Position numbers and translations under genes: made by a program
Assembly (NCBI GenBank): GCA_000004695.1
Contig: CM000151.3
Location: 4,576,001 to 4,640,000 of the forward strand
Origin: Dictyostelium discoideum
Lineage: Eukaryota
Length of the DNA stretch: 64,000 nucleotides
Direction of reading: 5' to 3'
Part shown: positions 5,042-63,295 of the stretch, piece after piece
Layout of the letters: the number at the start of each line of letters is the position of its first letter
How positions within the stretch are numbered: the stretch's first letter is position 1
Notes under the pieces: generated by a model
Database searches by the model: none
What the model was told of the DNA's origin: nothing
What the model saw: the letters and a program-made list of their open reading frames with translations, nothing else

Positions 5042-5490
5042 CCTTAGACATTGTTTTTTTAAATTTATTTGTTAAGTTATTATTAATGATTAAAAAAAAA
5101 AAAATTGTTTCTTTTTATACAAAAAAAAATAAAAAATAAAAAATAAAAAAAAAAAAATAAAAAAAAAAACTTTTTGCCCACTCATTTATTTTTTTTATTA
5201 TTATTATTTTTATTATTAAAAACTCATTCCTAGTATGGGCAAAATAATGATTTTTTTTTTTTAACTTTTTTTTTTTTTTTCAGACACTATTTTTATATCC
5301 CCCAATTAAAAAAAAAAAACCTTTTTTTTTAATAATAATTATAAAATTATAAAAAAAAAAAACTTGTTAGGTGTTTTATGAACCCACAGCATGAATAATA
5401 AAAAAACACTTCATTTTTTTTATTTTGTAATTTGACACACCACTAAAAAAAATTAAAAAAGTAAAAAAATGAAAAAATTAAAAAAAAAAA

Positions 5491-5545
5491 AGATTTAAAT
5501 CACCTTTTTTATTAATTGAATCGTGATTGACACCCACTTTCAATT
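5491..5545. repeat. Dispersed repeat of about 55 bp (agatttaaatcaccttttttatt..ttgaat.gt.attg.cacccactt). Second copy at 7417..7470.
   Basis: Near-identical 55-mers at 5491-5545 and 7417-7470, each followed by T-rich repeats. Confidence 0.6.
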
Positions 5546-5582
5546 TTTTTTTATTTTTATTTTTTTTATTTTTTAATAATTG

Positions 5583-6700
5583 TTAATTTAATGAAAGTTT
5601 AATAAATGAACAAAGAATGTTTGGTAAACTTGAAACTTTATCAATTTTAAAATTTGATAATTTAATTAAATTATTCCATTCATTTAAAGTTCTTTCTTTA
5701 CCACCATTTAAAATATTAATTGTATCTATTTAAAATTTAAATTAAAAAATATAATAATTAATAATAATAATTAAAAATAATTAAATTAAATTTAATTTCA
5801 AAAGATACATACGATATTCAATTGAAATTGGAATTGATTTTTTATTTTTATAAATTATATGATCAAATATATAAATACAAACTTCATTTTGATATGAAGA
5901 TTTAATTGATTTATAAATTTTATTTAAAATTTCTAATACTTGATTATCGCTAAACATATGGAATATATATTTAACTAAATAACAATTGCCAATTGGAAAT
6001 GTTTCATCAGTGAAAAAGTTACCCATTATTTCAAAATAACGATTATCTTTATAATTTTTTTCATTATTTTCAATTACTTCTTTTAAATCATAATTAATAC
6101 CTTTTTCAATGATTGAATTGTTTAAATGATATTTATCCAATATTTTCTTAATAGATTCACCTTGAGAACCACCCAAATCAACAATTGTTTTAAAATTACT
6201 AAAATCAACAATTTCTAAAATTGAATCAATTTGAGTTCTAGTGTATTCAGTCAATGTATTGTGAAAATATTTTTTAAGATTTTTTTCTTTATCAATGAAA
6301 TCAAAACCATCATTATAACCACTATTAAAAGTGCCCATTGCTTTTCCAGTTTTAAGACTTTCTTCAATATGTTTAAAATATGGTAATAATGTAACTTGAA
6401 AATATGAATCATTTACCCATGGATACTTATCTGTATCATTAATTAATGTTTCAGAAATTTCAGTATTTGAAAATAGTCTATCAATTTCTTCATCTTCTTT
6501 AAAAATACCCATAGTAGATAATGTTCTCAATAAAACATATAATCCATGCTCATTATATCCATTACATTCTTAATTGTTTAATACTTTTTGAACCATTTTT
6601 TAATTTATTTGGAATTTCTAATTCTAAAATAACTTTTAATGAGTATGATTTTATATAACCAGTTGCAATATCATATATAAAATTTTTAATTTGAATATTT
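5583..6700 (-). CDS. Class I SAM-dependent O-methyltransferase (COMT-like, plant-type). Core exon 6530..5813, last exon 5725..5583. N-terminal segment about 6700..6560 is in another frame.
   Basis: DLGGSQG SAM motif I, the dimerisation-domain motif LYVLLRTLSTMGIF, and C-terminal NGGKERTLNEWNNL (OMT motif GGKERT). GTATGT donor after ...SIEY. The upstream segment MENIQIKNFIYDIATGYIKSYSLKVILELEIPNKLKNGSKSIKQLRM* is in a different frame with no plausible intron between. Confidence 0.7.
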
Positions 6701-7390: not shown

Positions 7391-7589
7391 AGTAGGTAAT
7401 AAAAAGTAAAAAAAACAAGATTTAAATCACCTTTTTTTATTTTTGAATTGTAATTGGCACCCACTTTTATTTTTTTATTTATTATTTTTATTATTATTTT
7501 TATTATTTTTATTATTATTTTTATTATTATTTTTGTTATTATTTTTGTTATTATTTTTATTATTATTATTTTTATTATTATTAATCAGT

Positions 7590-8764
7590 TTAAGACAATG
7601 AAAAAGAATTTTTAAAATCAGAATTTAAATCATCTGTATTATAAAATGTTAATGGTATTGTTTTAACCACTTCAATACTTTCATTTTTAAATGACTCTTT
7701 TTCTTTTTCTTTTTGTTCCTCTTCTTTTTTTTCTTCTTTTTTTTCTTCCTCTTTTTCTTTTTCTTCATGATCTTGGGCTTTGGATGTTAAATGAAAATGA
7801 TAATCTGGTGATGGAATTAAGTCAACATTATCATTACCACTTAAAAGTCTGATTAATTTGAGGAATGGTTTTTCAAGATTAAAATTTGTTCTAACCGATA
7901 GTTCAAAATATGAAATATTCTTTTTACGATGAAATATAATCTGACTTGGGTTAATTCTTTTACCCATTGATTCTACTTTATTACCAACTAAAACCATTGG
8001 AACCACCTTACCTGTTATTCTTAATAATTCATTAAACCAATCGTTAACGCTTCTATATGATTCTCTTGAACAAACATCAAACATTATAATTGCACATTCC
8101 GCTCCAGTCCTATTACAATAATATTAATTAATATTAATATTAATACAATAAATGTTATTTTTTTATATTTATAGTGAATGGAGAGTGTGAGAGTGAGAGA
8201 GAGAGAGAGTGAGTGAGGTATACTTACATATAATCATCTCTCATAGCTCCAGGTAATCTAGTAAAAGCCATATCCCAAATACTGAAATTAACATCACCAA
8301 TAGTTGTTTTAAAATTAAATTTATGAACACTACAACCAAAAGTTGCTAAATAAAAATAAATAAAAATAAAAATATTGGTTATTATTATTTTGGACTGATA
8401 GTTTAATTTAAATTAAAGAGAATAATAAACCTACCAACATATTGAGTTTCAAATTCACCTGTTAAAAGTCTATTTATATAGGTGGACTAATAATAATATG
8501 ATATTAGTATATTTAAATATATTTGAAAAAGTTTATATATATAAAACCTACTTTACCAACTCCACCATCTCCAATTAATACTAATTTAATTTCTTTAGTA
8601 TTGTCAAATTTTTTAACTACTGGTAATGATGGTTTATTTTTTGATGATGATAATCCCAATGAAAATTGCGCACTTGATGGCGATGCTGCTGTTGTTGTTT
8701 TTGGTGTTCCAAAATCAAATGGTGGTGCTGTTGGTGGTGGTCCAAATTCAAATAGTGATGCTGT

Positions 8765-8861
<97 letters not shown>

Positions 8862-10068
8862 CCCAATCCAAACGGTGAACTTAATGGTGATGGTGCTGTT
8901 GGTGAACCCGATCCAAATGATGGCGTACTTGGTGGTACCAATCCAAATAATTCTTGTTCTATTTTTGTAATTTGTCCATATCTAAATGGTGGTGCTGTTG
9001 ATGGTGATGCTGTTGTTGTTGTTGTTGCTACTGTGTTTGATGATCCCGATTCAAATGATGGTGCTGTTGGTGATCCCGATCCAAATGATGGCGTACTTGG
9101 TGGTACCAATCCAAATAATTCCTGTTCTATTTTTGTAATTGGTCTATATCTAACTGGTGGTGCTGTTGGTGTTGATGCTGTTGTTGATGCTGTTGTTGTT
9201 GTTGTTGTTGTTGCTACTGTGTTTGATGATCCACCAAATCCCGATCCAAATGATGGTGCTGTTGGTGATCCCGATCCAAATGATGGCGTACTTGGTGGTC
9301 CAAATCTAAATAATTCTTCTTCTATTTTTGTAATTGATCCATATCCAAATGGTGATGCTGTTGATGTTGATGCTGTTGTTGTTGTCGTTGTTGCTGCTAC
9401 TGTGTTTGATGATCCACCAAATCCTAATGAAAATGCATCTCCTGATGGTAAAAGTGGAAGAGGTGAAACAAAACGAACGTTATCATTACCACTTAATATT
9501 TTGATTAATTGAATGAATGGTGTTTCAAATTTATAATTTGATTTACTTGAAATTTCACAATAGTGAATATTCTTACTACGATGAAAATTAATTTCCTTTG
9601 CTTTAACTTTACGATCTTTGATATCAACTTTATTACCAACTAAAATAATTGGTATATTATTACCTAATTCCTTTGTTAATTCATTAAACCAACTTGGTAC
9701 ATTCCTATATGAAACTCTTGAAGAAACATCAAACATAATAATTGCACATTGACTTCCAACACTATTATAATATATATATAATTAAATATTTTAATATATA
9801 TATATATATATATATACTTTTAATTATGAATTTTTTAAAATAAACTTACTAATATAAATGTCTAAATACTTCAAATTTTTCATCACCACAAGTATCCCAA
9901 ATATCAAAATTAACATTGCCGATATTAGTGTAAAGAATTAGATTACTTAGTTCTACTCCAACCGTAGCTATATTTTTATTTTATTTTTTTTATGTTTTTA
10001 TAATTAATAAAAATAAAAAAAAAGTTAACTATTTTCATAATAATAGTAATAATAATAATAATAATAAC

Positions 10069-10127
<59 letters not shown>

Positions 10128-10673
10128 TGATTTTAATGATACTTACGAATATGGCTTTTTTGAAATTCGCCTATTATATGACGTTTTAAAAATGTAGTCT
10201 AATTAATTCATGATAATAATAATAATAATTAATAATTAATAATTAAAAATGTAAAAATAATAATAAACAATTACTTTACCTTACCAACACCACTATCACC
10301 AACTAATATTAATTTGATGGGTCCATTTTTCTGTGTATTTTTTATGTTTTATGTGTATGTTAGTATATATATTTTTTTTTTTTTTATATTTAATGAAATA
10401 AATAATTTATTTTTAAAAATATATATATATATATATATATATAATTTACAATATCAATTGGTTTAATATTTTGATAAGCTTTTTGTTCAATTGGACTATG
10501 ATCTTCATCCTCAATTGGTATTTGTTCTCCTATTGCTTTTTCATAAGATGAAAGTAGCTCCGAATCAATATCACTAATATTAAATGTTGACTAAAAGTAA
10601 GAGAGTATTTTTAAAAAAAAAAAAAAAAAATTAATAAAAAATATTAATAAAAAATATTTTAAAATGGTAATAT

Positions 10674-10716
<43 letters not shown>

Positions 10717-10725
10717 TGTTACCAT
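7590..10725 (-). CDS. Tandem Ran-like GTPase. Two Ran-like domains joined by an FG/Ser/Thr-repeat linker in one reading frame. Exons 10725..10723 (ATG only), 10590..10450, 10320..10270, 10198..10147, 9967..9850, 9761..8552, 8486..8435, 8345..8228, 8109..7590.
   Basis: Domain 1: [29 protein letters not shown] / PTVGVELSNLILYTNIGNVNFDIWDTCGDEKFEVFRHLYY / [68 protein letters not shown]. This is a strong match to Ran ([84 protein letters not shown]). Domain 2: KLVLIGDGGVGK / STYINRLLTGEFETQYV / ATFGCSVHKFNFKTTIGDVNFSIWDMAFTRLPGAMRDDYM / [46 protein letters not shown].... All introns are GT(A/G)(A/G)GT...AG with consistent phases. ORF 8513..9736 is open from domain 1 through the linker into the domain-2 P-loop, and the linker contains no Met. 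Confidence 0.7.
8760..9420. repeat. Coding tandem repeats: (GAT)n of about 110 bp (poly-Ser of about 37 residues on the minus strand) plus three copies of a 180-bp unit.
   Basis: (gatgat)n at 8760-8870. Near-identical 180-bp units start about 8881, 9060 and 9240 (ccgatccaaatgatggcgtacttggtggtaccaatccaaataattc...). Each encodes PPSTPSFGSGSPTAPSFGSG..TTTTT..ITKIEQELFGLV. Confidence 0.85.
10040..10128. repeat. (TAA)n microsatellite inside an intron of the Ran-like gene.
   Basis: Direct observation of an (ataata)n run. Confidence 0.9.
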
Positions 10726-15963: not shown

Positions 15964-17439
15964 AAAAATAAAATGCAAATGGAGTTTGACAATAAAAGTA
16001 AAAGCAAATATCAAAATGATGTTGCCATTATTGGGTTGGGTTTTAGGTTAACTGGTAACTCAAACTCACCCAAATTATTTTGGTTTGTATTTTACTTTTA
16101 AAAAAACCACACACATATATAAAATATAAAATAATATTAATAATTTGATAATATTATAATCATAGGAATAATTTAATTAATAAATTTGATGGCGTTGTTG
16201 AAATTGATAGATGGAGTAAAAACTATTATTTAAATAATGAAATTAAAAATCATCAAGGTGGTTTAATATCATTAGAAGAACAAATAAAAATGTTTGATCC
16301 ACTTTTCTTTTCAATTCCACCATCTGATGCTGAAACAATTGATCCACAACAAAGACTACTTTTAAAATGTATTTATAATAATTATATATACTTAATGATT
16401 TTTATATAATATATATATATATATATATTAATTATTTTATAATATGATAGGTGTTTGGGAAGGATTTGAAGATGCAAATATTGATCCAATTAAATTACGT
16501 GGTAGTAATACAAGCGTTTACATTGGTTTGTTTATCCACAAATGATTATTTTAATAATTTAAAAAATACAAAGGAAACCTTAACTAATGTATTTGGATCA
16601 TCAGCACACAGTGAATCAAATAGAATTAGTTATTGTTATGATTTTAGAGGTCAATCAATTCACGCCAAAGAGCTTTTTTGAAAAGAAGAATAAAAAACAT
16701 TAAAAACCAAAAAAACTTGAAAAGCATAAAAACTTTAGGTTGTATTTATCTTCATCAACTATCATTAAAATATAATTGGAAATTAAAGAATTTTATAATT
16801 CCATCATCTATATCATCTCTATTTGGTGTTCAAAATCAATGTGGTTATGTTAGTGCTAATTGTATTAGATAGTTTTGCAAAGTATAGAAGATCAATTGGT
16901 TTACCTGCTTTGGCTATTAATTTTGGTCATATTGGAAGTATTGGTGTAGTTACTCGAAATGATGCAATCAGTGAATTATTGCATGGCTTTGGTTTGCAAT
17001 CTATGAATGGTAATATTTTGTTAGGTTCATCAGATTTATTTAGTCAAAATAAAGAAATAATTGATAATGATTATAGTAATATTATTGTAAGCAGTTTAAA
17101 TTTTGAAAATTTAAAATTCAGTCATTTGTTTACAAATAAATCTGCTTTTAAACTTAATTCAATATCAAATAATAATAATATCTATGGTAATAACAATAAT
17201 AATAATAATAGTAAGGATATATATCTCAATTGGTAATTTCAAAAATTGACTATTTATTATCAATTAATTAATAAAATATTAATTCAAATATACCATTATC
17301 AGAATTTGGCGGAGATAGTTCAATAATTACTCAAATTAAAAATTGGTTAGATAAATTTAAAAATAACCACTTTACAATATCTGAAATTCAAAAATATTCA
17401 ATTAATGATATAATTAAAAAATTAATAATTAACAAATAA
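15964..17439 (+). pseudogene. Polyketide synthase remnant. The KS N-terminus (2 small introns) is joined to the KR C-terminus and ACP, with frameshifts and an internal deletion.
   Basis: MQMEFDNKSKSKYQNDVAIIGLGFRLTGNSNSPKLFW | [16 protein letters not shown]...DPQQRLLLK | [26 protein letters not shown] is a typical Dictyostelium PKS KS start. A +1 shift follows (attggtttgtttatcc), then STNDYFNN...NRISYCYDFRGQS, which ends without the DTACSSSL active site. From about 16790 the frame reads GVQNQCGYVSANC (1-nt shift) then LDSFAKYRRSIGLPALAINFGHIGSIGVVTRND.. (KR C-term). At 17290-17439 the frame reads EFGGDSSIITQIKNWLDKF...LIINK* (ACP-like GxDS). Confidence 0.6.
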
Positions 17440-31654: not shown

Positions 31655-34600
31655 TTAGCTTCTACTTTGTAATGAATGAATATTATTTTTAAACTTCATT
31701 TCCTTCTTTCTCATTACAAAATGATAGGTAACTGAGGATATTACTACTGCAGCAAATGCGACACTACCCACTACAATACCAGCAATTGCACCACCACTTA
31801 ATCCACTGGATTTTTGAGAACAAATTGAATTTGGTGATGAAGATGAACTTGATGAATGATCTAATAATACTGAGAAATCAGGATCTACTATAACTTCAGA
31901 TTTATACTGTGGTATTATAATACCAATATATGAAGATGAGAATGATTCAGAATTTGATTGAGTTTGATTATTTTCAATAACTCTATTATCGATTGGGGTA
32001 ATTAGTCCATCTGCAATACCTCTTTTTAAGAATCTTGCATACATTGAATGATCTCCAATTTGAATTTTTAAATAATCTTCGTTTGTATTATTTCCAAATT
32101 GTTGAGATGAACAAATATCGTCACTGCTAGATGATTCAAATGTTGCTGACATTAATAATTCTAATTTACTTAATCGATTTCTAAATGGATATGAATTGAT
32201 TGAAATTGTATATTTTGAAGTTGATGGGTTCATTTGTAAATTATTACCAGCGAATGATATATTTGTAGCCTTATCAAACCATTGAATAGTTACATTTGTT
32301 TGTGATATTGTAATGTCATCTCTTGTAATATTAGTTATATACAATGATGTATTATTAGTTAAATCACTGTAAATCCATTTTTCAAAGTAATAGGTATTGA
32401 TTACATTATATTCATAATCGAGTTCTCTTAAAGCTACTAATGATATTAAAGATCTAAATGTAATATCAAGATTCGATGAGGTGGTAGTTGTTCCGTTTGG
32501 TGTTGAAATTTCGGTTGATGGATCGGTTGTATTAATTGATGGTTGTGGTACAATAATAACTTTGGATGTACAGTCAATACCAACCCATGGTGTGAAACAA
32601 ACACAACCCGATGTACTAGTATCACAATAACCTTGATTTGAACCACCACATTCTGGTTTTCCTGGACATTGTGGTCTTTTAGTTGGTGTCGGTGTTGGTG
32701 TTGGTGTTGGTGTTTCAGATGAAGATTCAGATGGTGTTTGAGATGGTGTTTGAGATGGTGTTTCAGTTGGTGTTTCAGTTGGTGTTTCGGTTGGTGTTTG
32801 AGTTGGTGTTTCGGTTGGTGTTTGGGTTGGTGTTTCAGTTGGAGTTTGAGTTGGTGTTTCAGTTGGAGTTTGAGTTGGTGTTTCAGTTGGAGTTTGAGTT
32901 GGTGTTTGAGTTGGTGTTTGAGTTGGTGTTTGAGTTGGTGTTTCAGTTGGTGTTTCAGTTGGTGTTGGTGTTTGAGTTGGGGTTGGTGGATCTGGAATAA
33001 ATAATAATACTTTTTGATATGGATAAATAAAATATTCATTTGAAGATATTGATTTATCATTTTCTAATATAATACTAAAGTTACTACCTTGATCCATTTC
33101 AGAGATACCGCCTAATAAAATAGCAGCACCCCCAACAGTTTTTTTAACTTGTAATGGTTTAGTAGTTGATTTATAATTGAATGTTGCACCAGTAACTGAT
33201 TTAAATCCTTTACCTGTTAACCATAAATCACCACCTAATGTAGAAATTCTATCAGAACCTGTAATAACTGGAACATCGATTGTATATGTTGTATTTATTA
33301 AATATGGGAAACCTAATTGTTTAAAATCATTAGAGCTATAACCACTATAATATCCACCATTATTTACTAAACCATAAACTGATAATAAAATTCCAAATGG
33401 GTAACCATATGCTACTGGTAATGAAATTGAACATTGATATGATTTTGAATTTGAATTGATTATTGTTTCAGATGTAATTTGACATTGAATTGTATTGAAA
33501 TCAGTTGAAGTTAAATAAATTACTGGGTAACTATTATTTTTAACACCAGATGCTAAATTTTCAACCTCTAAATTAAATGAAACAACTCTTTCACTTAAAC
33601 CTACATCAACTACAGTTTTATCACTAGAAAATTTTTTAATTACAACTGGTGTTGGATCACTTACTTCATTTGGACAAGTAACTGATATTTTATTGATTGA
33701 TGGATCATTAAAATAGTACATAAATGGATTATAAAGAGAGTTTAAAATAAATTTATAATCACTAAATAATGAAAATGTTGAATTATTATTTTCAGTATCA
33801 AATAGTAATACATCAGAAATAATATAGTCTTGAGAAATACAAGGAGTTGATAAATTAATACCAACTGTATATACTTGTTCAAATACATCAGTTGTTGGAT
33901 ATAATGTAAAATTATAATTTGAACCATCAATTGCACCTTTAACTACAATATAACCACTTTTAAAACCATTAATTGGATCACTAATTGTTAATTTCCAACC
34001 AATTTCAGTATTAGTTTGAATTGTAACTGGTGATGAAGATGGATACTTTTGAATTCTTTTAAATATTGGACCCATTAAATCAGCATCTTTATTAAACAAT
34101 TTGAATATTAAATTAGTAATTAATTTTTTCAATAAAAATAAATAAATAAAAATTTTAACTTACTTTCTGAAATTACATTAAATGAAGCATTACTACCTAA
34201 TGCACTATTCAATACCCATTGTTTTCTATTAAAAAAGAGGGCATAAGACATTGGACCTTGTCTCGAATTTCTTGGCAAATAAAATTCAACTTGAAACATT
34301 TTAATTGTATCATTCCATTGTGCTGGCCAAGCTTTATCTAGTAATCCTTGAGGATAGATTGGATCATCATTCAAATATTCTTTTATCCATTGTTGATGAT
34401 GAACCAATAGAGATATTGGTGAATTGATATCTAAATTTGACATATTAAAATATAAAATATTACCAGCAACAACATTTGTAACATCCATTGTTTTATAAAA
34501 AATTGAAGCATTTTGAACATTATAAAAATTGAAACCTTTAAAAGCAATTAAAAAAAAGTTAGTTTATATGTAATAAAAAACAATAGTTCATTATAATATT

Positions 34601-37287: not shown

Positions 37288-40015
37288 TTATTTTACTTTT
37301 TCCAATTTATTTGTAATGGATCTATTAAATTTATTTTCTTGATTCCTTTTTACAAAATGAAAGGAAAGTGAGAATATTACTACTGCAGCAAATGTGACAC
37401 TACCTATTACAATACCAGCAATTTCACCACCACTTAATCCACTGGATTTTTTAGAACAAATTGAATTTGGTGATGAAGATGAACTTGATGAATGATCTAA
37501 TAATACTGAGAAATCAGGATCTACTATAACTTTAGATTTATACTGTGGTATTATAATACCAATATATGAAGATGAGAATGATTCAGAATTTGATTGAGTT
37601 TGATTATTTTCAATAACTCTATTATCGATTGGGGTAATTAGTCCATCTGCAATACCTCTTTTTAAGAATCTTGCATACATTGAATGATCTCCAATTTGAA
37701 TTTTTAAATAATCTTCGTTTGTATTATTTCCAAATTGTTGAGATGAACAAATATCGTCACTGCTAGATGATTCAAATGTTGCTGACATTAATAATTCTAA
37801 TTTACTTAATCGATTTCTAAATGGATATGAATTGATTGAAATTGTATATTTTGAAGTTGATGGGTTCATTTGTAAATTATTACCAGCGAATGATATATTT
37901 GTAGCCTTATCAAACCATTGAATAGTTACATTTGTTTGTGATATTGTAATGTCATCTCTTGTAATATTAGTTATATACATAGATGTATTATTAGTTAAAT
38001 CACTGTAAATCCATTTTTCAAAGTAATAGGTATTGATTACATTATATTCATAATCGAGTTCTCTTAAAGCTACTAATGATATTAAAGATCTAAATGTAAT
38101 ATCAAGATTCGATGAGGTAGTAGTTGTTCCGTTTGGTGTTGAAATTTCGGTTGATGGATCGGTTGTATTAATTGATGGTTGTGGTACAATAATAACTTTG
38201 GATGTACAGTCAATACCAACCCATGGTGTGAAACAAACACAACCCGATGTACTGGTATCACAATAACCTTGATTTGAACCACCACATTCTGGTTTTCCTG
38301 GGCATTGTGGTTTTTTAGTTGGTGTTTGAGTTGGAGTTTGAGTTGGTGTTTGAGATGGTGTTTCAGATGGTGTTTCAATGGGGGTTTCAGATGGTGTTTG
38401 AGTTGGTGTTTCCGTTGGTGTTTGAGATGGTGTTGGAATTGGAGTTGAAGGGTCTGGTGTTACAGTTGGTGTTGGAGTTGGTGATGGAGTTTCTGGTTCA
38501 CGAGTTGGTACATAATTCAATACTTTTTGATATGGATAAATAAAATATTCATTTGAAGATATTGATTTATCATTTTCTAAAATAATACTAAAGTAGGTAC
38601 CTGGATCCATTTCAGTGATACCGCCTAATAAAATAGCAGCACCTCCAATAATTTTGTTAACTTGTAATGGTTTAGTAGTTGATTTATAATTGAATGTTGC
38701 ACCAGTAACTGATTTAAATCCTTTACCTGTTAACCATAAATCACCACCAAATGTTGAAATTCTATCGGAACCTGTAATAACTGGAATATCGATTGTATAG
38801 GTTGTATTAATAAAATATTGGAAACCTAATTTATTAATATCATCAGAGCTATAACCACTGTAGTATCCACCATTATTTACTAAACCATAAACTGACAATA
38901 AAATTCCAAATGGGTAACCGAATGCTACTGGTAATGAAGCTGAACATTGATATGATTTTGATTTTGGTGTTATTATTGTTTCAGATGTAATTTGACATTG
39001 AATTGTATCGAAATCAGTTGCAGTTAAATAAATTACTGGGTAACTATTATTTTTTACACCAGATGCTAAATTTTCAACTTCTAAATAAAATGGAACGATT
39101 CTATAGCTTAAACCTACATCAACTGTTTTATTACCACAAACAAAATTTTTAATTACAACTGGTGTTGGATCATATACCTCATTTGGACAAGTAACTGATA
39201 TTTTATTGATTGATGGATCACCGAGATAATTCATAAATGGATTAAAAAGTGATAATCCTATGAATTTGTCATCATTAAATAATGTAAATGTTGAATTATT
39301 ATTTTCAGTATCAAATAGTAATACATCAGAAATAATATAGTCTTGAGAAATACAAGGAGTTGATAAATTAATACCAACTGTATATACTTGTTCGAATATA
39401 TTATTTGTTGGATTAATAGTAAAATTATAATTTGAACCATCAATTGCACCTTTAACTACAATATAACCACTTTTAAAACCATTAATTGGATCACTAATTG
39501 TTAATTTCCAACCGATCTCAGTATTAGTTTGAGTTATAACTGGTGATGATGATGATGGATACTTTTCAATATTTTTAAATATTGGACCTAGCAAATCCAT
39601 TTTTTCAGAAATTACATTAAATTGAGCATCACTACCAAATGCATTATTTAAAACAAATACATTTCTTTTAAAAAAGAGTGCATACGGTAAATTTCCACTT
39701 TTAGAATTTCTTGGCAAATAAAACTCTGCTTGAAACATTCTAATTGTTTCATTCCATTTTGCTGGCCAAACTTTATGATACAATTCAGATGGAATTGTTT
39801 GGTCTTGGATGGTTTGGAATTTTTGTGTTGATGGTTGGTGGTGAATAAATAAACTCAATGGTGAATCAATATCTATATTTGTCAAATTAAAATAAAGAAT
39901 ATTTCCTGCAACTGAATTTGTTACATTCATTGTTTTAAAAAGTATTGATGCATTTCTAATATCATACATATTGAAACCTATAATTAAAATTATTGTTTTA
40001 ATAATTTAGTTATTT

Positions 40016-55679: not shown

Positions 55680-57744
55680 TTATTTAGTTGGCAATAGTTT
55701 TACATGTTTGATAAAGAAATGTGTGGGAATAGAGTTTATAAAATTTAAACTATCATTATAGATACAAATAAATTCAAATGAAGGTGGCCATATTAAATCT
55801 GGTAATTCATCACAATTATAACCTGTAAAATAAAATGATTTCAAATTAGGTGGTAAGGCATCTCTATCGATAGTTGAATTGAAAAAATCTGAAATTCGTA
55901 ATAAAGTGAGTGATGATGGTAATACATCTCTTTGAATTGGTTGTTTGTAACTTGGTAATTTTAATACCCCTATGGATGATGGTAGATCTCCAACATTTAA
56001 GGGTTGATTAAAATCATAGATTTTTAATTTTTTAAGATTATTTGGTAAGAGACTATCGTTTAATTCGAATTCATCTGAAACTGTTAAAACTAGTTTTGAA
56101 ATAGTAGGTGGGAATTTTACATCTGTTAAATCTATTTGACTTACATTGAGTTTCAACGATGTTAAATTTTTGAAAAAATCTAAAGAGTGTAAATGTGGGT
56201 TCCGAGTAGTGAAATTCATTATTTTTAGTGTTTGAATTGTTTTGGGTAATATTTGAATATCAGAGAATGCGTTCATTGATAAATTTGTAATTGTTGGTGG
56301 AAAGAGAGCTGCATTATCTTTGTTTCTACCAAGATGTAAAGTTTTAATTGAGATTGGTAATGAGTTTGGTTCAAGTTTATGATTGCCCGACTTGAATATC
56401 AATGATGTAACATTGTGTGGAATCATTCCTTTTTCAATGGTCTGATTAAAAAAAGAATCAAACTCTAATGAAGTTGTACCACCTGGTATAGATGTCGAGT
56501 CTAATTTATTAGTACCTCTTTTAGAATCAAAAGAATAATCAAGAGTTGTTACTGATTTTGGTATTGATCCATATAGAATTATTCCTTGATAATTTGGATC
56601 TAATATCAATGAGGTGAGTGATGGTGGTAATTCATCTCTATGAATTGAATGTTGAAATGATTTTCCAAAAGTTAAAGATTTTAATGTTCTTGGTAGCAAT
56701 GGTATACCATTTGTGTCACTTAATGATTGATTAAACTCATCACTAAAATCAATCGATGTTAGACTATTACCAATCATATTACGAGTTAATTGTTGATCAA
56801 AATCAATCAATGTAATGGACTTACATGTATCTGGTATCCAATGGTCTACTAGTATAATATCTGAACAATCCATCTCTATATTTTCCGCAATTTGTGGCAT
56901 TGGATACCAATTTGAGTAACGTTGGTTTTCATATCCATTTAAATCAAATAATCTGATGTTATTAAAATAATTTCTATATTTATATGTTGAAAAATTATTT
57001 ATCCCTATATCAAAGCTATTATTATGATTATTATATATTCTAAGATGAAATAAAATTTGATCCCTAATAACCATATTTCCCCAAATTTTTTTAAATAATA
57101 TATAATTATTATCAATTGTTTGATTTTTTAGTTGATTTGTTCTTATATTATTATTATTAATATCAGGTTGTGATTTTAAAATTAATTGATTTAAATTATT
57201 ATTATTAATGGTAATATGATGATTTAAATTATTTTTAATGATTATAAGTATTGAACAATCGAATGAAATTCTTTTATTTCTATTGTTAATTGTGTCATTA
57301 TTATTATTATCTGTAATTGAATGAGTATATATAATTTCATTATTAGAATTATTGGTTGTAAATGTGTTTTTTAAATTTTGAATATGATTATTTAGTGTTT
57401 GAAATTGTTGATCATTTAATCCTTTTAAATCATTTAAATGCTTTTTTTCATCTTCTTCTTGTCTATATAAATATGTTTTTATAATTAGTATAATAATAAT
57501 AAAAATAATAAAATAAAAAATATAAAATATCAAAGTGTGTTAACGTATACAATTTTTTTTCTTTTTTATTTTGAAGGTTTTCATTATTGTTTTTATAATT
57601 ATTGATACTATTACAATAATCTTGAAGTTGATTGAATGTAATATTTAAACTATTAATTGATAATATTAATAAACAATTTAAAAGCTCTTCATTGTTTTTA
57701 TTATTATAATTATTAATTAAATAAGAGTAAATTATATTATCCAT
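55680..57744 (-). CDS. FNIP-repeat protein, copy 1. Exons 57744..57551, 57472..55680.
   Basis: Repeated FNQ...IP units (FNQSLSDTNGIPLLPRTLKSLTFGKSFQHSIHRDELPPSLTSL; FNQTIEKGMIPHNVTSLIF; FNQPLNVGDLPSSIGVLKL...). Exon 1 is MDNIIYSYLINNYNNKNNEELLNCLLILSINSLNITFNQLQDYCNSINNYKNN...KKL, followed by a GTATAC donor. Confidence 0.75.
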
Positions 57745-61235: not shown

Positions 61236-63295
61236 TTAATAATTTAATTTCCCACGTTTTAATAGTTTTGTATGTTTGATAAAGAAATCTGTGGGAATAG
61301 AGTTTATAAAATTTAAACTATCATTGTAGATATAAACAAATTCGAATGAAGGTGGCCATATTAAATCTGGTAATTCATCACAATTATAACCTGTAAAATA
61401 AAATGATTTCAAATTAGGTGGTAAGGCATCTCTATCGATAGTTGAATCGAAAAAATCAGAAATTCGTAATAAAGTGAGTGATGATGGTAATACATCTTTT
61501 TGAATTGGTTGTTTGTAACTTGGTAATTTTAATACCCCTATAGATGATGGTAGATCTCCAACATTTAAGGGTTGATTAAAACCATAGATTTTTAATTTTT
61601 TAAGATTATTTGGTAAGAGACTATCGTTTAATTCGAATTCATCTGAAACTGTTAAAACTAGTTTTGAAATAGTAGGCGGGAATTTTACATCTGTTAAATC
61701 TATTTGACTTACATTGAGTTTCAACGAAGTTAAATTTTTGAAAAAATATAAAGAGTGTAAATGTGGGTGGGAACGAGTAGTGAAATCCATTATTTTTAGT
61801 GTTTGAATTGTTTTGGGCAATAGAAACACTTCAAGGCATTCATGTATTGATAAATTTGTAATTGTTGGTGGTAATTGAGCTGAATAGTCTTTGTTTCTAC
61901 CAAGATGTAAAGTTTTAATTGAGATTGGTAATGAATCTGGTTCAAGTTTATGATTGCCCGAACCGAATTTCAATGATGTAACATTGTTTGAAATCACTCC
62001 TTTTTCAATGGTCTGATTGAAAAAATAATCAAACTCTAAAGATGTTGTGCCACCTGGTACCGATGTTGAGTCAAATTTACATGTACCATCTTTAGAATCA
62101 AAATAACAATGAAGAGTTGTTACTGACTTTGGTATTGATCCATATAGAATTACTCCTTGATATTTTGGATCCAATAATAATGATGTAAGTGATGGTGGTA
62201 TTTCGTCTCTATGAATTGAATGTTGAAATAGTTTTCCAAAAGTTAAAGATTTTAATGTTCTTGGTAACCATGGTATACCATTTGTATCACTTAAAGATTG
62301 ATTAAATTCATTACCAAAATCAATAGATGTTAGACTATTACCAATGATATTACGGGTTAATTGTTGATCAAAATCTATAAATGTAATGGATTTACATGTA
62401 TCTGGTATCCAGTGTTCTCCAAGTATAATATCTGAACATCTCATCTCTATATTTTCAACAATTTGTGGCATTGGATAACAATTTGAGTTACGTTGGTTTT
62501 TATAGCCATCAGAATCCAATAACTTGACATTATTAAAATAATTTCTATATTTATATGTTGAAATGTTATTTCTCCTTATATCAAAGCTATGATTATGATT
62601 ATTATATATTCTAAGATGAAATAAAATTTGATCCCTAATAATCATATTTCCCCAAAACTTTTTAAATAATATATAATTATTATCAATTGTTTGATTTATT
62701 TGTTGATTTGTTTTAATTTTATTATTAATATCAGATTGTGATTTTAAAATTAATTGATTTATATTATTATTATTAGTGAGATGATTTAAATTATTTTTAA
62801 TGATTATAAGTATTGAACAATCGAATGAAATTCTTTTATTTCTATTGTTAATTGTGTCATTATTATTATTATCTGTAATTGAATGAGTATATATAATTTC
62901 ATTATTAGAATTATTGGTTGTTAATATATTTTTTAAATTTTGAATTTGATTATTTAGTGTTTGAAATTGTTTGTCATTTAATCCTTTTAAATCATTTAAA
63001 TGCTTTTTTTCCTCTTCTTGTCTAAAAATGTTTATAAATTAGTATAATAATATAATAATAAAATATAAAATATAAAATAATCAAAGTGTGTTAATGCATA
63101 CAATTTTTTTATTTTTTTTATTTGAAGGTTTTGATTATTGTTTTTGTAATTATTGATACTATTACAATAATCTTGAAGTTCATTGAATGTAATATTTAAA
63201 TTATTAATTGATAATATTAATAAACAATTTAAAAACTCTTCATTATTTCTATTGTTATAATTATTAATTAAATAAGAGTAAATTATATTATCCAT
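61236..63295 (-). CDS. FNIP-repeat protein, copy 3. Exons 63295..63102, 63021..61236.
   Basis: Exon 1 MDNIIYSYLINNYNNRNNEEFLNCLLILSINNLNITFNELQDYCNSINNYKNNNQNLQIKKIKKL, then a GTATGC donor and ttttag acceptor. Exon 2 is open from 63021 to the stop at 61236 (RQEEEKKHLNDLKGLNDKQFQTLNNQIQNLKNILTTNNSNNEIIY...FNQSLSDTNGIPWLPRTLKSLTFGKLFQHSIHRDEIPPSLTSL...). Confidence 0.75.

What the first reader, a model, noticed from the sequence alone, without database searches (positions are those of the whole stretch)
9850..9967. Ran-like domain 1 carries Asp in place of the catalytic Gln (WDTCGDE instead of WDTAGQE)
Exon 9967..9850 encodes ATVGVELSNLILYTNIGNVNFDIWDTCGDEKFEVFRHLYY. In Ran the G3/switch II motif is DTAGQE, and Gln69 positions the catalytic water. 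Q69L is the classic GTPase-dead, GTP-locked mutant. Gln to Asp with otherwise intact G1 (GDSGVGKTT), G4 (NKVD) and G5 (SSK) suggests a nucleotide-binding but hydrolysis-altered domain. It is not obviously a decayed pseudogene.
Basis: partly seen in the sequence, partly recalled or inferred. Interest (0 to 1): 0.6.

Follow-up and report, generated by a model that had tools for sequence, protein, structure and literature searches.

The report
Asp-for-Gln Ran-like domain of ranB
The exon belongs to the annotated, expressed Dictyostelium gene ranB, a 754-residue protein with two Ran-like domains joined by a nuclear-pore-like FG linker. The first domain keeps every nucleotide-binding residue but has replaced the catalytic Gln (by Asp) and two other catalytic-site residues, so it is probably an atypical Ran that does not cycle in the normal way.

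Summary
Window 9967..9850 (minus strand) is one exon whose translation contains WDTCGDE. The Asp (codon GAT, 9884-9882) aligns with the catalytic Gln69 of Ran.

The exon is part of a clean nine-exon gene with GT-AG introns throughout. It spans 3136 bp and encodes 754 aa. Both figures match published values for D. discoideum ranB (DDB_G0274943, UniProt Q554Y4). RanB is detected by mass spectrometry and is O-fucosylated, so this is not a pseudogene.

- The same domain also has Ser at the Ran Gly19 position (Ras Gly12) and His at Tyr39.
- Six of twelve switch II positions are changed, while all nucleotide and Mg ligands are kept.
- The second domain has lost the DxxG glycine and looks like a pseudo-GTPase. 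The 292-aa linker is FG-rich (13 FG against 1.9 expected).

Among 417 Ran-like domains surveyed, 398 have Gln at this position and only this one has Asp.

The most likely reading is a nucleotide-binding Ran paralogue outside the normal RanGAP-driven cycle. The direction of the effect on hydrolysis is not predictable from sequence. Conservation in other dictyostelids could not be tested. It is a new member of the known class of atypical GTPases and of moderate interest.

The parts
10723..10725 (-). exon 1 of ranB: the ATG only, followed by intron GTAACA...TTTTAG (10722-10591)
   Evidence: With this start the gene spans 3136 bp and encodes 754 aa. These are the published values for ranB: chr 2 4583590-4586725, and Q554Y4 at 754 aa.
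10450..10590 (-). exon 2: acidic N-terminal extension (STFNISDIDSELL...KPIDI)
   Evidence: It has no in-frame ATG, so an upstream start exon is needed.
10280..10330 (-). exon 3: start of Ran-like domain 1 with the P-loop GDSGVGK. The Ser codon AGT at 10294-10292 occupies Ran Gly19 (Ras Gly12).
10147..10198 (-). exon 4: TTFLKRHIIGEFQKSHI. The His codon CAT at 10153-10151 is at Ran Tyr39.
9850..9967 (-). exon 5 (the finding): switch I Thr42 and G3/switch II, PTVGVE...WDTCGDEKFEVFRHLYY. The Asp codon GAT at 9884-9882 is at Ran Gln69 and Cys is at Ala67.
8552..9761 (-). exon 6: rest of domain 1 (to 9467; NKVD 9634-9623, SSK 9550-9542), the FG-rich and Ser/Thr-rich linker (9466-8591), and the P-loop of domain 2
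   Evidence: The linker has 13 FG dipeptides against 1.87 expected, and 0 of 20000 shuffles reach 13.
8435..8486 (-). exon 7: domain 2, STYINRLLTGEFETQYV. It is 52 nt, the same length and phase as exon 4.
   Evidence: The repeated 52/118-nt exon pattern shows an internal tandem duplication.
8228..8345 (-). exon 8: domain 2 switch I/II with a destroyed G3, WDMAFTRL (8274-8257). It is 118 nt, as is exon 5.
7590..8109 (-). exon 9: rest of domain 2 (NKVE 7982-7971, SVR 7898-7890), a Lys/Glu-rich tail, a vestigial Ran tail NTDDL (7640-7626), and the stop codon
   Evidence: Logan contigs from other runs are 99.8% identical, and their 2 differences are both synonymous.

Best explanation
The exon is exon 5 of Dictyostelium discoideum ranB (DDB_G0274943, Q554Y4). 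This is an expressed 754-aa protein built as: acidic N-terminus, Ran-like domain 1, FG-rich Ser/Thr linker, Ran-like domain 2, Lys/Glu tail. Domain 1 is a Ran-derived G domain that most likely still binds guanine nucleotide and Mg. Its catalytic and regulator-facing apparatus has been rebuilt as a set: Gly19Ser, Tyr39His, Ala67Cys, Gln69Asp, and Gly74Val/Leu75Phe/Asp77His/Gly78Leu in switch II. It therefore most likely no longer runs the canonical RCC1-loaded, RanGAP-terminated cycle. It would act as an atypical Ran module that is constitutively liganded or slowly and autonomously hydrolysing. Domain 2 has lost the DxxG glycine and is a pseudo-GTPase-like partner. Shown here: the sequence features, the gene model, identity with ranB, expression (from papers), the rarity of non-Gln at this position, and the co-loss of Gly19 and Gln69 across Ran-like domains. 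Inferred: retained nucleotide binding, loss of RanGAP sensitivity, and any link to nuclear transport.
For: Identity and integrity. There are nine exons and all eight introns are GT..AG. The gene spans 3136 bp and encodes 754 aa, matching the published ranB span and Q554Y4 length. By composition, a stop-free frame of this length has a chance of about 5e-28. Expression. RanB protein was quantified by MS and falls on starvation, and mRNA logFC is -2.1 to -2.6. It was captured as a Spy-dependent O-Fuc protein alongside FG nucleoporins. It co-clusters in expression with RanA, RanBP1 and two RCC1 proteins. Ran origin. Domain 1 hits Gsp1/Ran at 1e-66 against about 1e-27 for Rabs. Nucleotide binding kept. 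Gly17, Asp18, Gly20, Gly22, Lys23, Thr24, Thr25, Phe35, Thr42, Asp65, Gly68, Asn122, Lys123, Asp125, Ser150 and Lys152 are all present, although 22 of 84 near-invariant Ran positions have changed. Catalytic set changed. The non-conservative changes cluster at Gly19, Tyr39 and switch II residues 67-78. Gln69 is the cis catalytic residue in Ran-RanGAP, and Tyr39 sits in the closed, catalysis-relevant position (PMC2265111). Across 379 Ran-like domains scored at both columns, 12 of 16 lacking Gln69 also lack Gly19, against 12 of 363 with Gln69. One unrelated tandem Ran-like protein, P0244, carries the same trio of changed positions: Ser19, His39 and Phe/Leu69.
Against: No biochemical test was possible. 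An acidic residue at this position can support hydrolysis: Ras Q61E has raised intrinsic GTPase. Removing Tyr39 may speed intrinsic hydrolysis. So 'hydrolysis-deficient' is not secure. dN/dS between the two domains is about 0.76, which fits relaxed constraint on at least one of them. No close orthologue was found in any searchable collection, so selection on the Asp itself is untested. Forbes et al. score ranB's domain architecture as not conserved across dictyostelids. The Gly19/Gln69 association counts sequences, not independent events.
Confidence: 0.55

Rival explanations
1. Domain 1 is a hydrolysis-competent, self-sufficient GTPase. The Asp carboxylate acts as a general base or holds a second cation and the attacking water. 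Loss of the Tyr39 brake raises the intrinsic rate. The domain would then turn over GTP without a RanGAP, working as a timer rather than a locked switch.
For: Ras Q61E is cited as having increased intrinsic GTPase, explained by a second cation site (PMC2987813). Tyr39 of Ran is reported to inhibit intrinsic hydrolysis (Brucker 2010, title cited). All nucleotide and Mg ligands are intact. No clear RanGAP orthologue has been identified in Dictyostelia (Forbes supplement).
Against: Asp is one methylene shorter than Glu or Gln and may not reach the water. In Der et al., every tested codon-61 mutant, including Q61E, had reduced hydrolysis (PMC6813200). Ser at the Gly12-equivalent position usually hinders the transition state. 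Asp occurs only once among 417 Ran-like domains, so it is not a recurrent solution.
Confidence: 0.2
2. The changes are drift in a fast-evolving, lineage-specific paralogue. RanB would work mainly through its FG/Ser-Thr linker or as a scaffold, and the nucleotide state of domain 1 would be irrelevant (a pseudo-GTPase in all but motif appearance).
For: dN/dS between the domains is about 0.76. Domain 2 has clearly lost the DxxG glycine, its NKxD is NKVE and its SAK is SVR. No orthologue above 60% identity is seen anywhere. The domain architecture is scored as variable among species.
Against: Domain 1 keeps about 16 of 16 nucleotide/Mg-contacting residues while losing 26% of other near-invariant positions. 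That would happen by chance roughly 0.74^16, or about 0.01 (a post-hoc estimate). The frame is open over 754 codons. The only two strain differences seen are synonymous. The protein is made and regulated.
Confidence: 0.2
3. The feature is an artefact: a sequencing or assembly error, a wrong exon model, or an unexpressed pseudogene.
For: No independent read-level confirmation of exon 5 could be obtained. The flanking introns are (ATT)n and (TA)n repeats that break short-read assemblies.
Against: Two nucleotide changes separate GAT from CAA/CAG. The model reproduces the published gene span and protein length exactly. The neighbouring residues Cys67, Val74, Phe75, His77 and Leu78 are also changed, so this is not an isolated miscall. 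The protein is detected by MS in two studies.
Confidence: 0.03

Closest known systems
Canonical Ran (D. discoideum RanA, human RAN, yeast Gsp1)
   Same: Domain 1 is 55-60% identical to canonical Rans over about 170 residues. Its best PDB matches are Ran/Gsp1. It has the same G1, G4 and G5 ligands, Thr42, Asp65 and Gly68, no CAAX, and the dictyostelid-type 'IPT.GV' switch I.
   Different: It has Gly19Ser, Tyr39His, Ala67Cys, Gln69Asp and a remodelled switch II. There is no acidic DEDDDL tail after domain 1. It is embedded in a 754-aa two-domain protein with an FG linker.
Engineered GTPase-deficient Ran mutants (Q69L, G19V)
   Same: The same two positions are altered, the ones used experimentally to lock Ran in the GTP form (established knowledge). 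Gln69 is the cis catalytic residue in the RanGAP complex (PMC2265111).
   Different: The natural residues here are Asp and Ser, not Leu and Val, and their kinetic effect is unknown. Tyr39 and switch II are changed as well, so effector binding may not resemble Ran-GTP.
Natural small GTPases without the catalytic Gln (Rap1 with Thr61; Rnd, RhoH and RhoBTB-type atypical GTPases; pseudo-GTPases)
   Same: Nucleotide-binding motifs are kept while the Gln61-equivalent is replaced, often together with the Gly12-equivalent. Rap shows that such proteins can still be switched off by a GAP that supplies the missing residue in trans (PMC2265111).
   Different: This one belongs to the Ran family, where non-Gln is rare (19 of 417). 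Asp at this site was not seen in any other Ran-like domain surveyed. No partner GAP is known.
Other tandem Ran-like proteins: P0330 (Physarum polycephalum), P0241 (AT-rich metatranscriptome), P0244, P0001
   Same: They have two Ran-like domains in one chain, one or both with a non-Gln residue at position 69. P0241 and P0330 also carry FG repeats. P0244 has Ser19/His39/(Phe,Leu)69 in both domains.
   Different: The domain order differs: FG-Ran-Ran in P0241 and P0330, Ran-FG-Ran in ranB. Identity to ranB is only 37-46%. The NJ tree gives no support for orthology. In P0241 and P0330 the first domain keeps Gln and the second loses it.
FG nucleoporins
   Same: The linker has 13 FG dipeptides in 292 aa (PSFGSG, GFGG, LFGL types) and is 41% Ser+Thr and 9% charged. 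RanB is captured with FG nucleoporins as a Spy-dependent O-fucosylated protein.
   Different: There is no evidence for pore localisation. FG-like low-complexity tracts are common in Dictyostelium proteins. Part of the FG excess comes from a threefold internal repeat.

Membership tests
Ran family of small GTPases | Closest sequence similarity is to Ran rather than to Rab, Ras, Rho or Arf | tested here: met
   Domain 1 matches Gsp1/Ran at E about 1e-66 and Rab at about 1e-27. The top database hits for both domains are Rans.
Ran family of small GTPases | G1 GDGGxGKTT, G4 NKVD and G5 SAK nucleotide-binding motifs | tested here: met
   Domain 1 has GDSGVGKTT, NKVD and SSK. The frame and ligands are kept, but Gly19 is Ser.
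Ran family of small GTPases | G3/switch II DTAGQE with catalytic Gln69 | tested here: not met
   The motif is DTCGDE. 398 of 417 surveyed Ran-like domains have Gln.
Ran family of small GTPases | C-terminal acidic DEDDDL tail (binds RanBP1) | tested here: not met
   Domain 1 runs straight into the FG linker. Domain 2 is followed by a Lys/Glu tract and only a vestigial NTDDL, 11 residues before the stop.
Ran family of small GTPases | Cycling by RCC1 (GEF) and RanGAP/RanBP1, and binding of karyopherins and NTF2 | not testable with these tools
   The evidence is indirect only. Six of twelve switch II positions and Tyr39 are changed. ranB is co-expressed with RanA, RanBP1 and two RCC1 proteins.
D. 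discoideum ranB (DDB_G0274943 / Q554Y4) | Gene span and protein length as published | tested here: met
   The model gives 3136 bp and 754 aa. Published values are chr 2 4583590-4586725 (3136 bp) and 754 aa. Residue-by-residue identity could not be checked because the protein is absent from the searchable collections.
Atypical (GTPase-deficient) small GTPases / pseudo-GTPases | Catalytic Gln61-equivalent and/or Gly12-equivalent replaced while the fold is kept | tested here: met
   Gln69Asp and Gly19Ser are present, and 62 of 84 near-invariant Ran positions are kept.
Atypical (GTPase-deficient) small GTPases / pseudo-GTPases | Measured lack of GTP hydrolysis, or a constitutive nucleotide state | not testable with these tools
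   This needs recombinant protein.
FG-repeat (nucleoporin-like) proteins | Enrichment of FG motifs in a low-charge, Ser/Thr-rich disordered region | tested here: met
   There are 13 FG against 1.87 expected, and 0 of 20000 shuffles reach 13. The region is 41% Ser+Thr and 9% charged.
FG-repeat (nucleoporin-like) proteins | Residence at the nuclear pore, or binding of transport receptors | not testable with these tools
   There is only co-capture with FG nucleoporins in O-fucose pull-downs.

The most novel reading that the evidence does not exclude
RanB is a self-contained 'Ran plus FG' device. Domain 1 would be a permanently GTP-form-like Ran domain, insensitive to RanGAP, tethered by an O-fucosylated FG domain to a pseudo-GTPase partner. 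It would bind importin-beta-type receptors or RanBP1 independently of the RanGTP gradient, for example at the pore or on mitotic structures. FG plus tandem-Ran fusions in Physarum and another amoebozoan-like organism would then mark a recurrent amoebozoan solution.
Probability: 0.1. Interest if true: 0.7.

Novelty: new member of a known kind. Interest (0 to 1): 0.4.

Why it matters
Ran is normally a single, extremely conserved switch whose Gln69-dependent, RanGAP-driven hydrolysis creates the nucleus-cytoplasm RanGTP gradient. A naturally occurring, expressed Ran paralogue has replaced Gln69, Gly19 and Tyr39 but kept its nucleotide ligands. It is also fused to an FG domain and a dead second Ran domain. 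This offers a ready-made natural experiment on what a non-cycling Ran can do in a genetically tractable amoeba. The literature I could search treats RanB simply as 'a second Ran', so expression-cluster inferences that pair it with RCC1 or RanBP1 as an ordinary Ran should be read with care. The finding does not overturn anything. Atypical GTPases lacking the catalytic Gln are a well-known class.

Tried and rejected
1. Orthologue search. Two single-sequence searches and one profile search of the 5.8-billion-protein collection returned only canonical Rans (at most 60% identity for domain 1 and 52% for domain 2) and one self-fragment (P0121).
2. Exhaustive HMMER search of 1.84 billion representatives with the domain 1 C-terminal exon. 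It gave no self-hit and no close orthologue, but did reveal other tandem Ran-likes.
3. JGI metagenome scan. It found only canonical Rans at 52-57% identity, through the universal peptides QCAIIMFD and GNKVDIKD.
4. Exact look-ups of the neighbouring Arl-like ORF and of the 407-aa exon-6 ORF were not on record. The organism's own annotated proteome is evidently not in the collections.
For that reason no structure prediction of the full domain was attempted.
6. An NJ tree with bootstrap placed both ranB domains as long basal branches. It is uninformative on whether ranB is orthologous to P0241 and P0330.
7. Logan contigs for the last exon are genomic, not cDNA, so they give no splicing evidence.
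8. Rejected ideas. Pseudogene: ruled out by the clean frame and published protein detection. A Rab-type domain because of GDSGVGK: the similarity is clearly to Ran. A single-base sequencing error: two changes are needed.
9. The idea that the linker repeats (APPVRYRPITKIEQEL) derive from the Ran C-terminal helix (APPEVVMDPALAAQYEHDL) was noted but not tested.

Full report
**Observation.** The minus strand of window 9965..9850 translates to TVGVELSNLILYTNIGNVNFDIWDTCGDEKFEVFRHLY. The exon runs 9967..9850 between an AG acceptor and a GTAAGT donor. The Asp (GAT, 9884-9882, residue 111) therefore occupies Ran Gln69. Gln to GAT needs two base changes, so a single miscall cannot produce it.

**Gene model and identity.** Splicing nine exons gives an open frame of 754 codons and a span of 3136 bp. 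The exons are 10725-10723 (ATG only), 10590-10450, 10330-10280, 10198-10147, 9967-9850, 9761-8552, 8486-8435, 8345-8228 and 8109-7590. All eight introns are GT..AG and 75-94% A+T.
- The published supplementary tables of PMC6830349 give ranB (DDB_G0274943) as chromosome 2 4583590-4586725. That is 3136 bp. [quoted passage not shown]
- Forbes et al. (PMC8923023) state that D. discoideum has exactly two Ran homologues, RanA and RanB.
- The window gene is therefore ranB. Residue-level identity could not be checked, because the organism's annotated proteome is absent from the searchable collections.

**Not a pseudogene.**
- RanB protein was quantified by mass spectrometry and falls on starvation (mean FC -0.81). 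Its mRNA logFC is -2.07, -2.54 and -2.55 at 4, 5 and 6 h.
- It is captured as a Spy-dependent O-fucosylated protein together with FG nucleoporins (PMC11507795).
- It co-clusters in expression with RanA, RanBP1 and two RCC1-domain proteins.
- By composition, a stop-free frame of this length has a chance of about 5e-28.
- Genomic Logan contigs from other sequencing runs cover 8790-7556. They differ at two sites, both synonymous.

**Architecture.** Pfam finds two Ras-family domains.
- Domain 1 is residues 53-220. Domain 2 is residues 513-680.
- Both domains have the same intron positions (52-nt and 118-nt exons). They share derived characters against all Rans: WFNEL, LVGNKV, LSGNDNV and a one-residue insertion. 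This points to an internal tandem duplication.
- They are 47% identical to each other, with dN 0.42, dS 0.55 and a ratio of about 0.76. The ratio is inflated by 90% A/T third positions.
- The 292-aa linker holds 13 FG dipeptides against 1.87 expected (0 of 20000 shuffles reach 13). It is 41% Ser+Thr and 9% charged. It contains DNA repeats of period 168/195 and a (TCA)35 poly-Ser tract.
- Domain 2 has WDMAFTRL in place of WDTAGQEK, so the DxxG glycine is lost. It also has NKVE, SVR and a vestigial NTDDL tail. It looks like a pseudo-GTPase.

**What is changed in domain 1.** I compared it with 336 canonical Rans. Of 84 positions conserved at 95% or more, domain 1 keeps 62.
- The changes are G19S, V27L, T32I, E36Q, Y39H, V47L, F52L, A67C, Q69D, G74V, L75F, D77H, G78L, I81V, T97S, D107E, R110K, C112G, V118I, A151S, K159T and L174V.
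- Every nucleotide or Mg ligand is kept: G17, D18, G20, G22, K23, T24, T25, F35, T42, D65, G68, N122, K123, D125, S150 and K152.
- The non-conservative changes concentrate at the Ras-Gly12 equivalent (Gly19), at Tyr39 and in switch II.

**How unusual is it.** Among 417 Ran-like domains with a residue at the Gln69 column, Gln occurs 398 times. These came from all proteins fetched. The rest are Asn 6, Glu 3, Ala 2, Ser 2, and Asp, Thr, Phe, Leu, Lys and His once each. The only Asp is this domain.
- Non-Gln residues are found mainly in tandem Ran-like proteins.
- Loss of Gln69 goes with loss of Gly19: 12 of 16 against 12 of 363 (Fisher 3e-13). The lineages are not independent.
- P0244, a metatranscriptome protein, has Ser19/His39 with Phe69 or Leu69 in both of its domains.
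- Two FG-repeat plus tandem-Ran proteins exist elsewhere: P0330 from Physarum polycephalum and P0241 from an AT-rich metatranscriptome. Their first and second domains pair with each other in an NJ tree. The ranB domains sit on unresolved long branches, so orthology is open.

**Mechanism.** Gln69 is the cis catalytic residue in the Ran-RanGAP complex, and Tyr39 adopts the closed position that replaces an arginine finger (PMC2265111). Together with the Gly12-equivalent, all three members of the catalytic set are altered, and so is half of switch II, which regulators and effectors read.
- The best-supported reading is a nucleotide-binding Ran-like module that no longer runs the canonical RCC1/RanGAP cycle (confidence about 0.55).
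- The direction of the kinetic effect is open. Asp was not among the 17 codon-61 substitutions tested in H-Ras, all of which lowered hydrolysis (PMC6813200).
- Ras Q61E is cited with raised intrinsic GTPase (PMC2987813).
- Tyr39 of Ran is reported to restrain intrinsic hydrolysis (Brucker 2010, cited in PMC13317620).
- The rivals are an autonomous, Asp-assisted hydrolase (0.2), a drifted scaffold whose nucleotide state is irrelevant (0.2), and an artefact (0.03).

**What could not be done.** The orthologues named by Forbes et al. did not surface in any search. These are DPU_G0067138, DLA_02699/02720 and PPL_10923/10921, with none in D. fasciculatum.

**Verdict.** The feature lies in an already annotated and expressed but functionally uncharacterised gene. 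The papers I could search call RanB simply a Ran homologue and do not mention the catalytic-site substitutions, the dead second domain or the FG linker. It is a new member of the known class of atypical small GTPases, with an unusual architecture. Interest is 0.4.

Noticed in passing
window 8590-7815 (-), G3 at 8274-8257: The second Ran-like domain of ranB has WDMAFTRL instead of WDTAGQEK, so the DxxG glycine is lost. It also has NKVE and SVR. It is probably a pseudo-GTPase. A vestigial Ran tail, NTDDL (7640-7626), lies 11 residues before the stop.
   Followed up: partly
window 9466-8591 (-): The linker between the two Ran-like domains is nucleoporin-like. It has 13 FG dipeptides against 1.9 expected, is 41% Ser+Thr, and has three copies of about 56-65 aa (DNA period 168/195) plus a (TCA)35 poly-Ser tract at 8861-8756. 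RanB is reported to be O-fucosylated along with FG nucleoporins.
   Followed up: partly
window 7401-7511 and 5473-5585: An element of about 115 bp (…AAAGTGGGTGYCAAT…AAAAAGGTGATTTAAATCTT…) is shared at 84% identity by the 3' flanks of ranB and of the downstream O-methyltransferase-like gene. Its nature is unknown.
   Followed up: no
window 6706-5590 (-): The O-methyltransferase-like gene has an in-frame TAA near 6563 (…SIKQLRM*), after which the frame resumes. This is either a pseudogene or an unrecognised intron.
   Followed up: no
window 7400-7260 (-) and 16823-17236 (+): There are two polyketide-synthase-like C-terminal fragments: GLPTLAINFCHIESIGAVTRNDAMGELLHGFGLQFLNGN and GLPALAINFGHIGSIGVVTRNDAISELLHGFGLQSMNGN. 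They look like gene relics.
   Followed up: no
window 2843-2208 (-): An Arf/Arl-like ORF of 211 aa has a Gly-rich insert (GYGKNGFGFGFGCGSGSGG) and 'VVCGQN' where Arf has WDVGGQD. It is a second atypical small GTPase in the window. Its exact sequence is not on record in the gene-position collection.
   Followed up: partly
P0241 (L004), P0330, P0244, P0001: Tandem Ran-like proteins occur in other eukaryotes. Physarum P0330 and the AT-rich metatranscriptome protein P0241 carry FG repeats N-terminal to two adjacent Ran-like domains. P0244 has Ser19/His39/(Phe,Leu)69 in both domains and a C-terminal hydrophobic tail. P0001 has Asn at position 69 in both domains.
   Followed up: partly
window 31655-34132 and 37288-39969 (-); 55680-57533 and 61236-62645 (-): There are two pairs of large paralogous ORFs. 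One pair encodes Thr/Pro-repeat surface-protein-like products with near-identical C-terminal halves. The other pair is FNIP-repeat-like. Both indicate local gene duplications.
   Followed up: no
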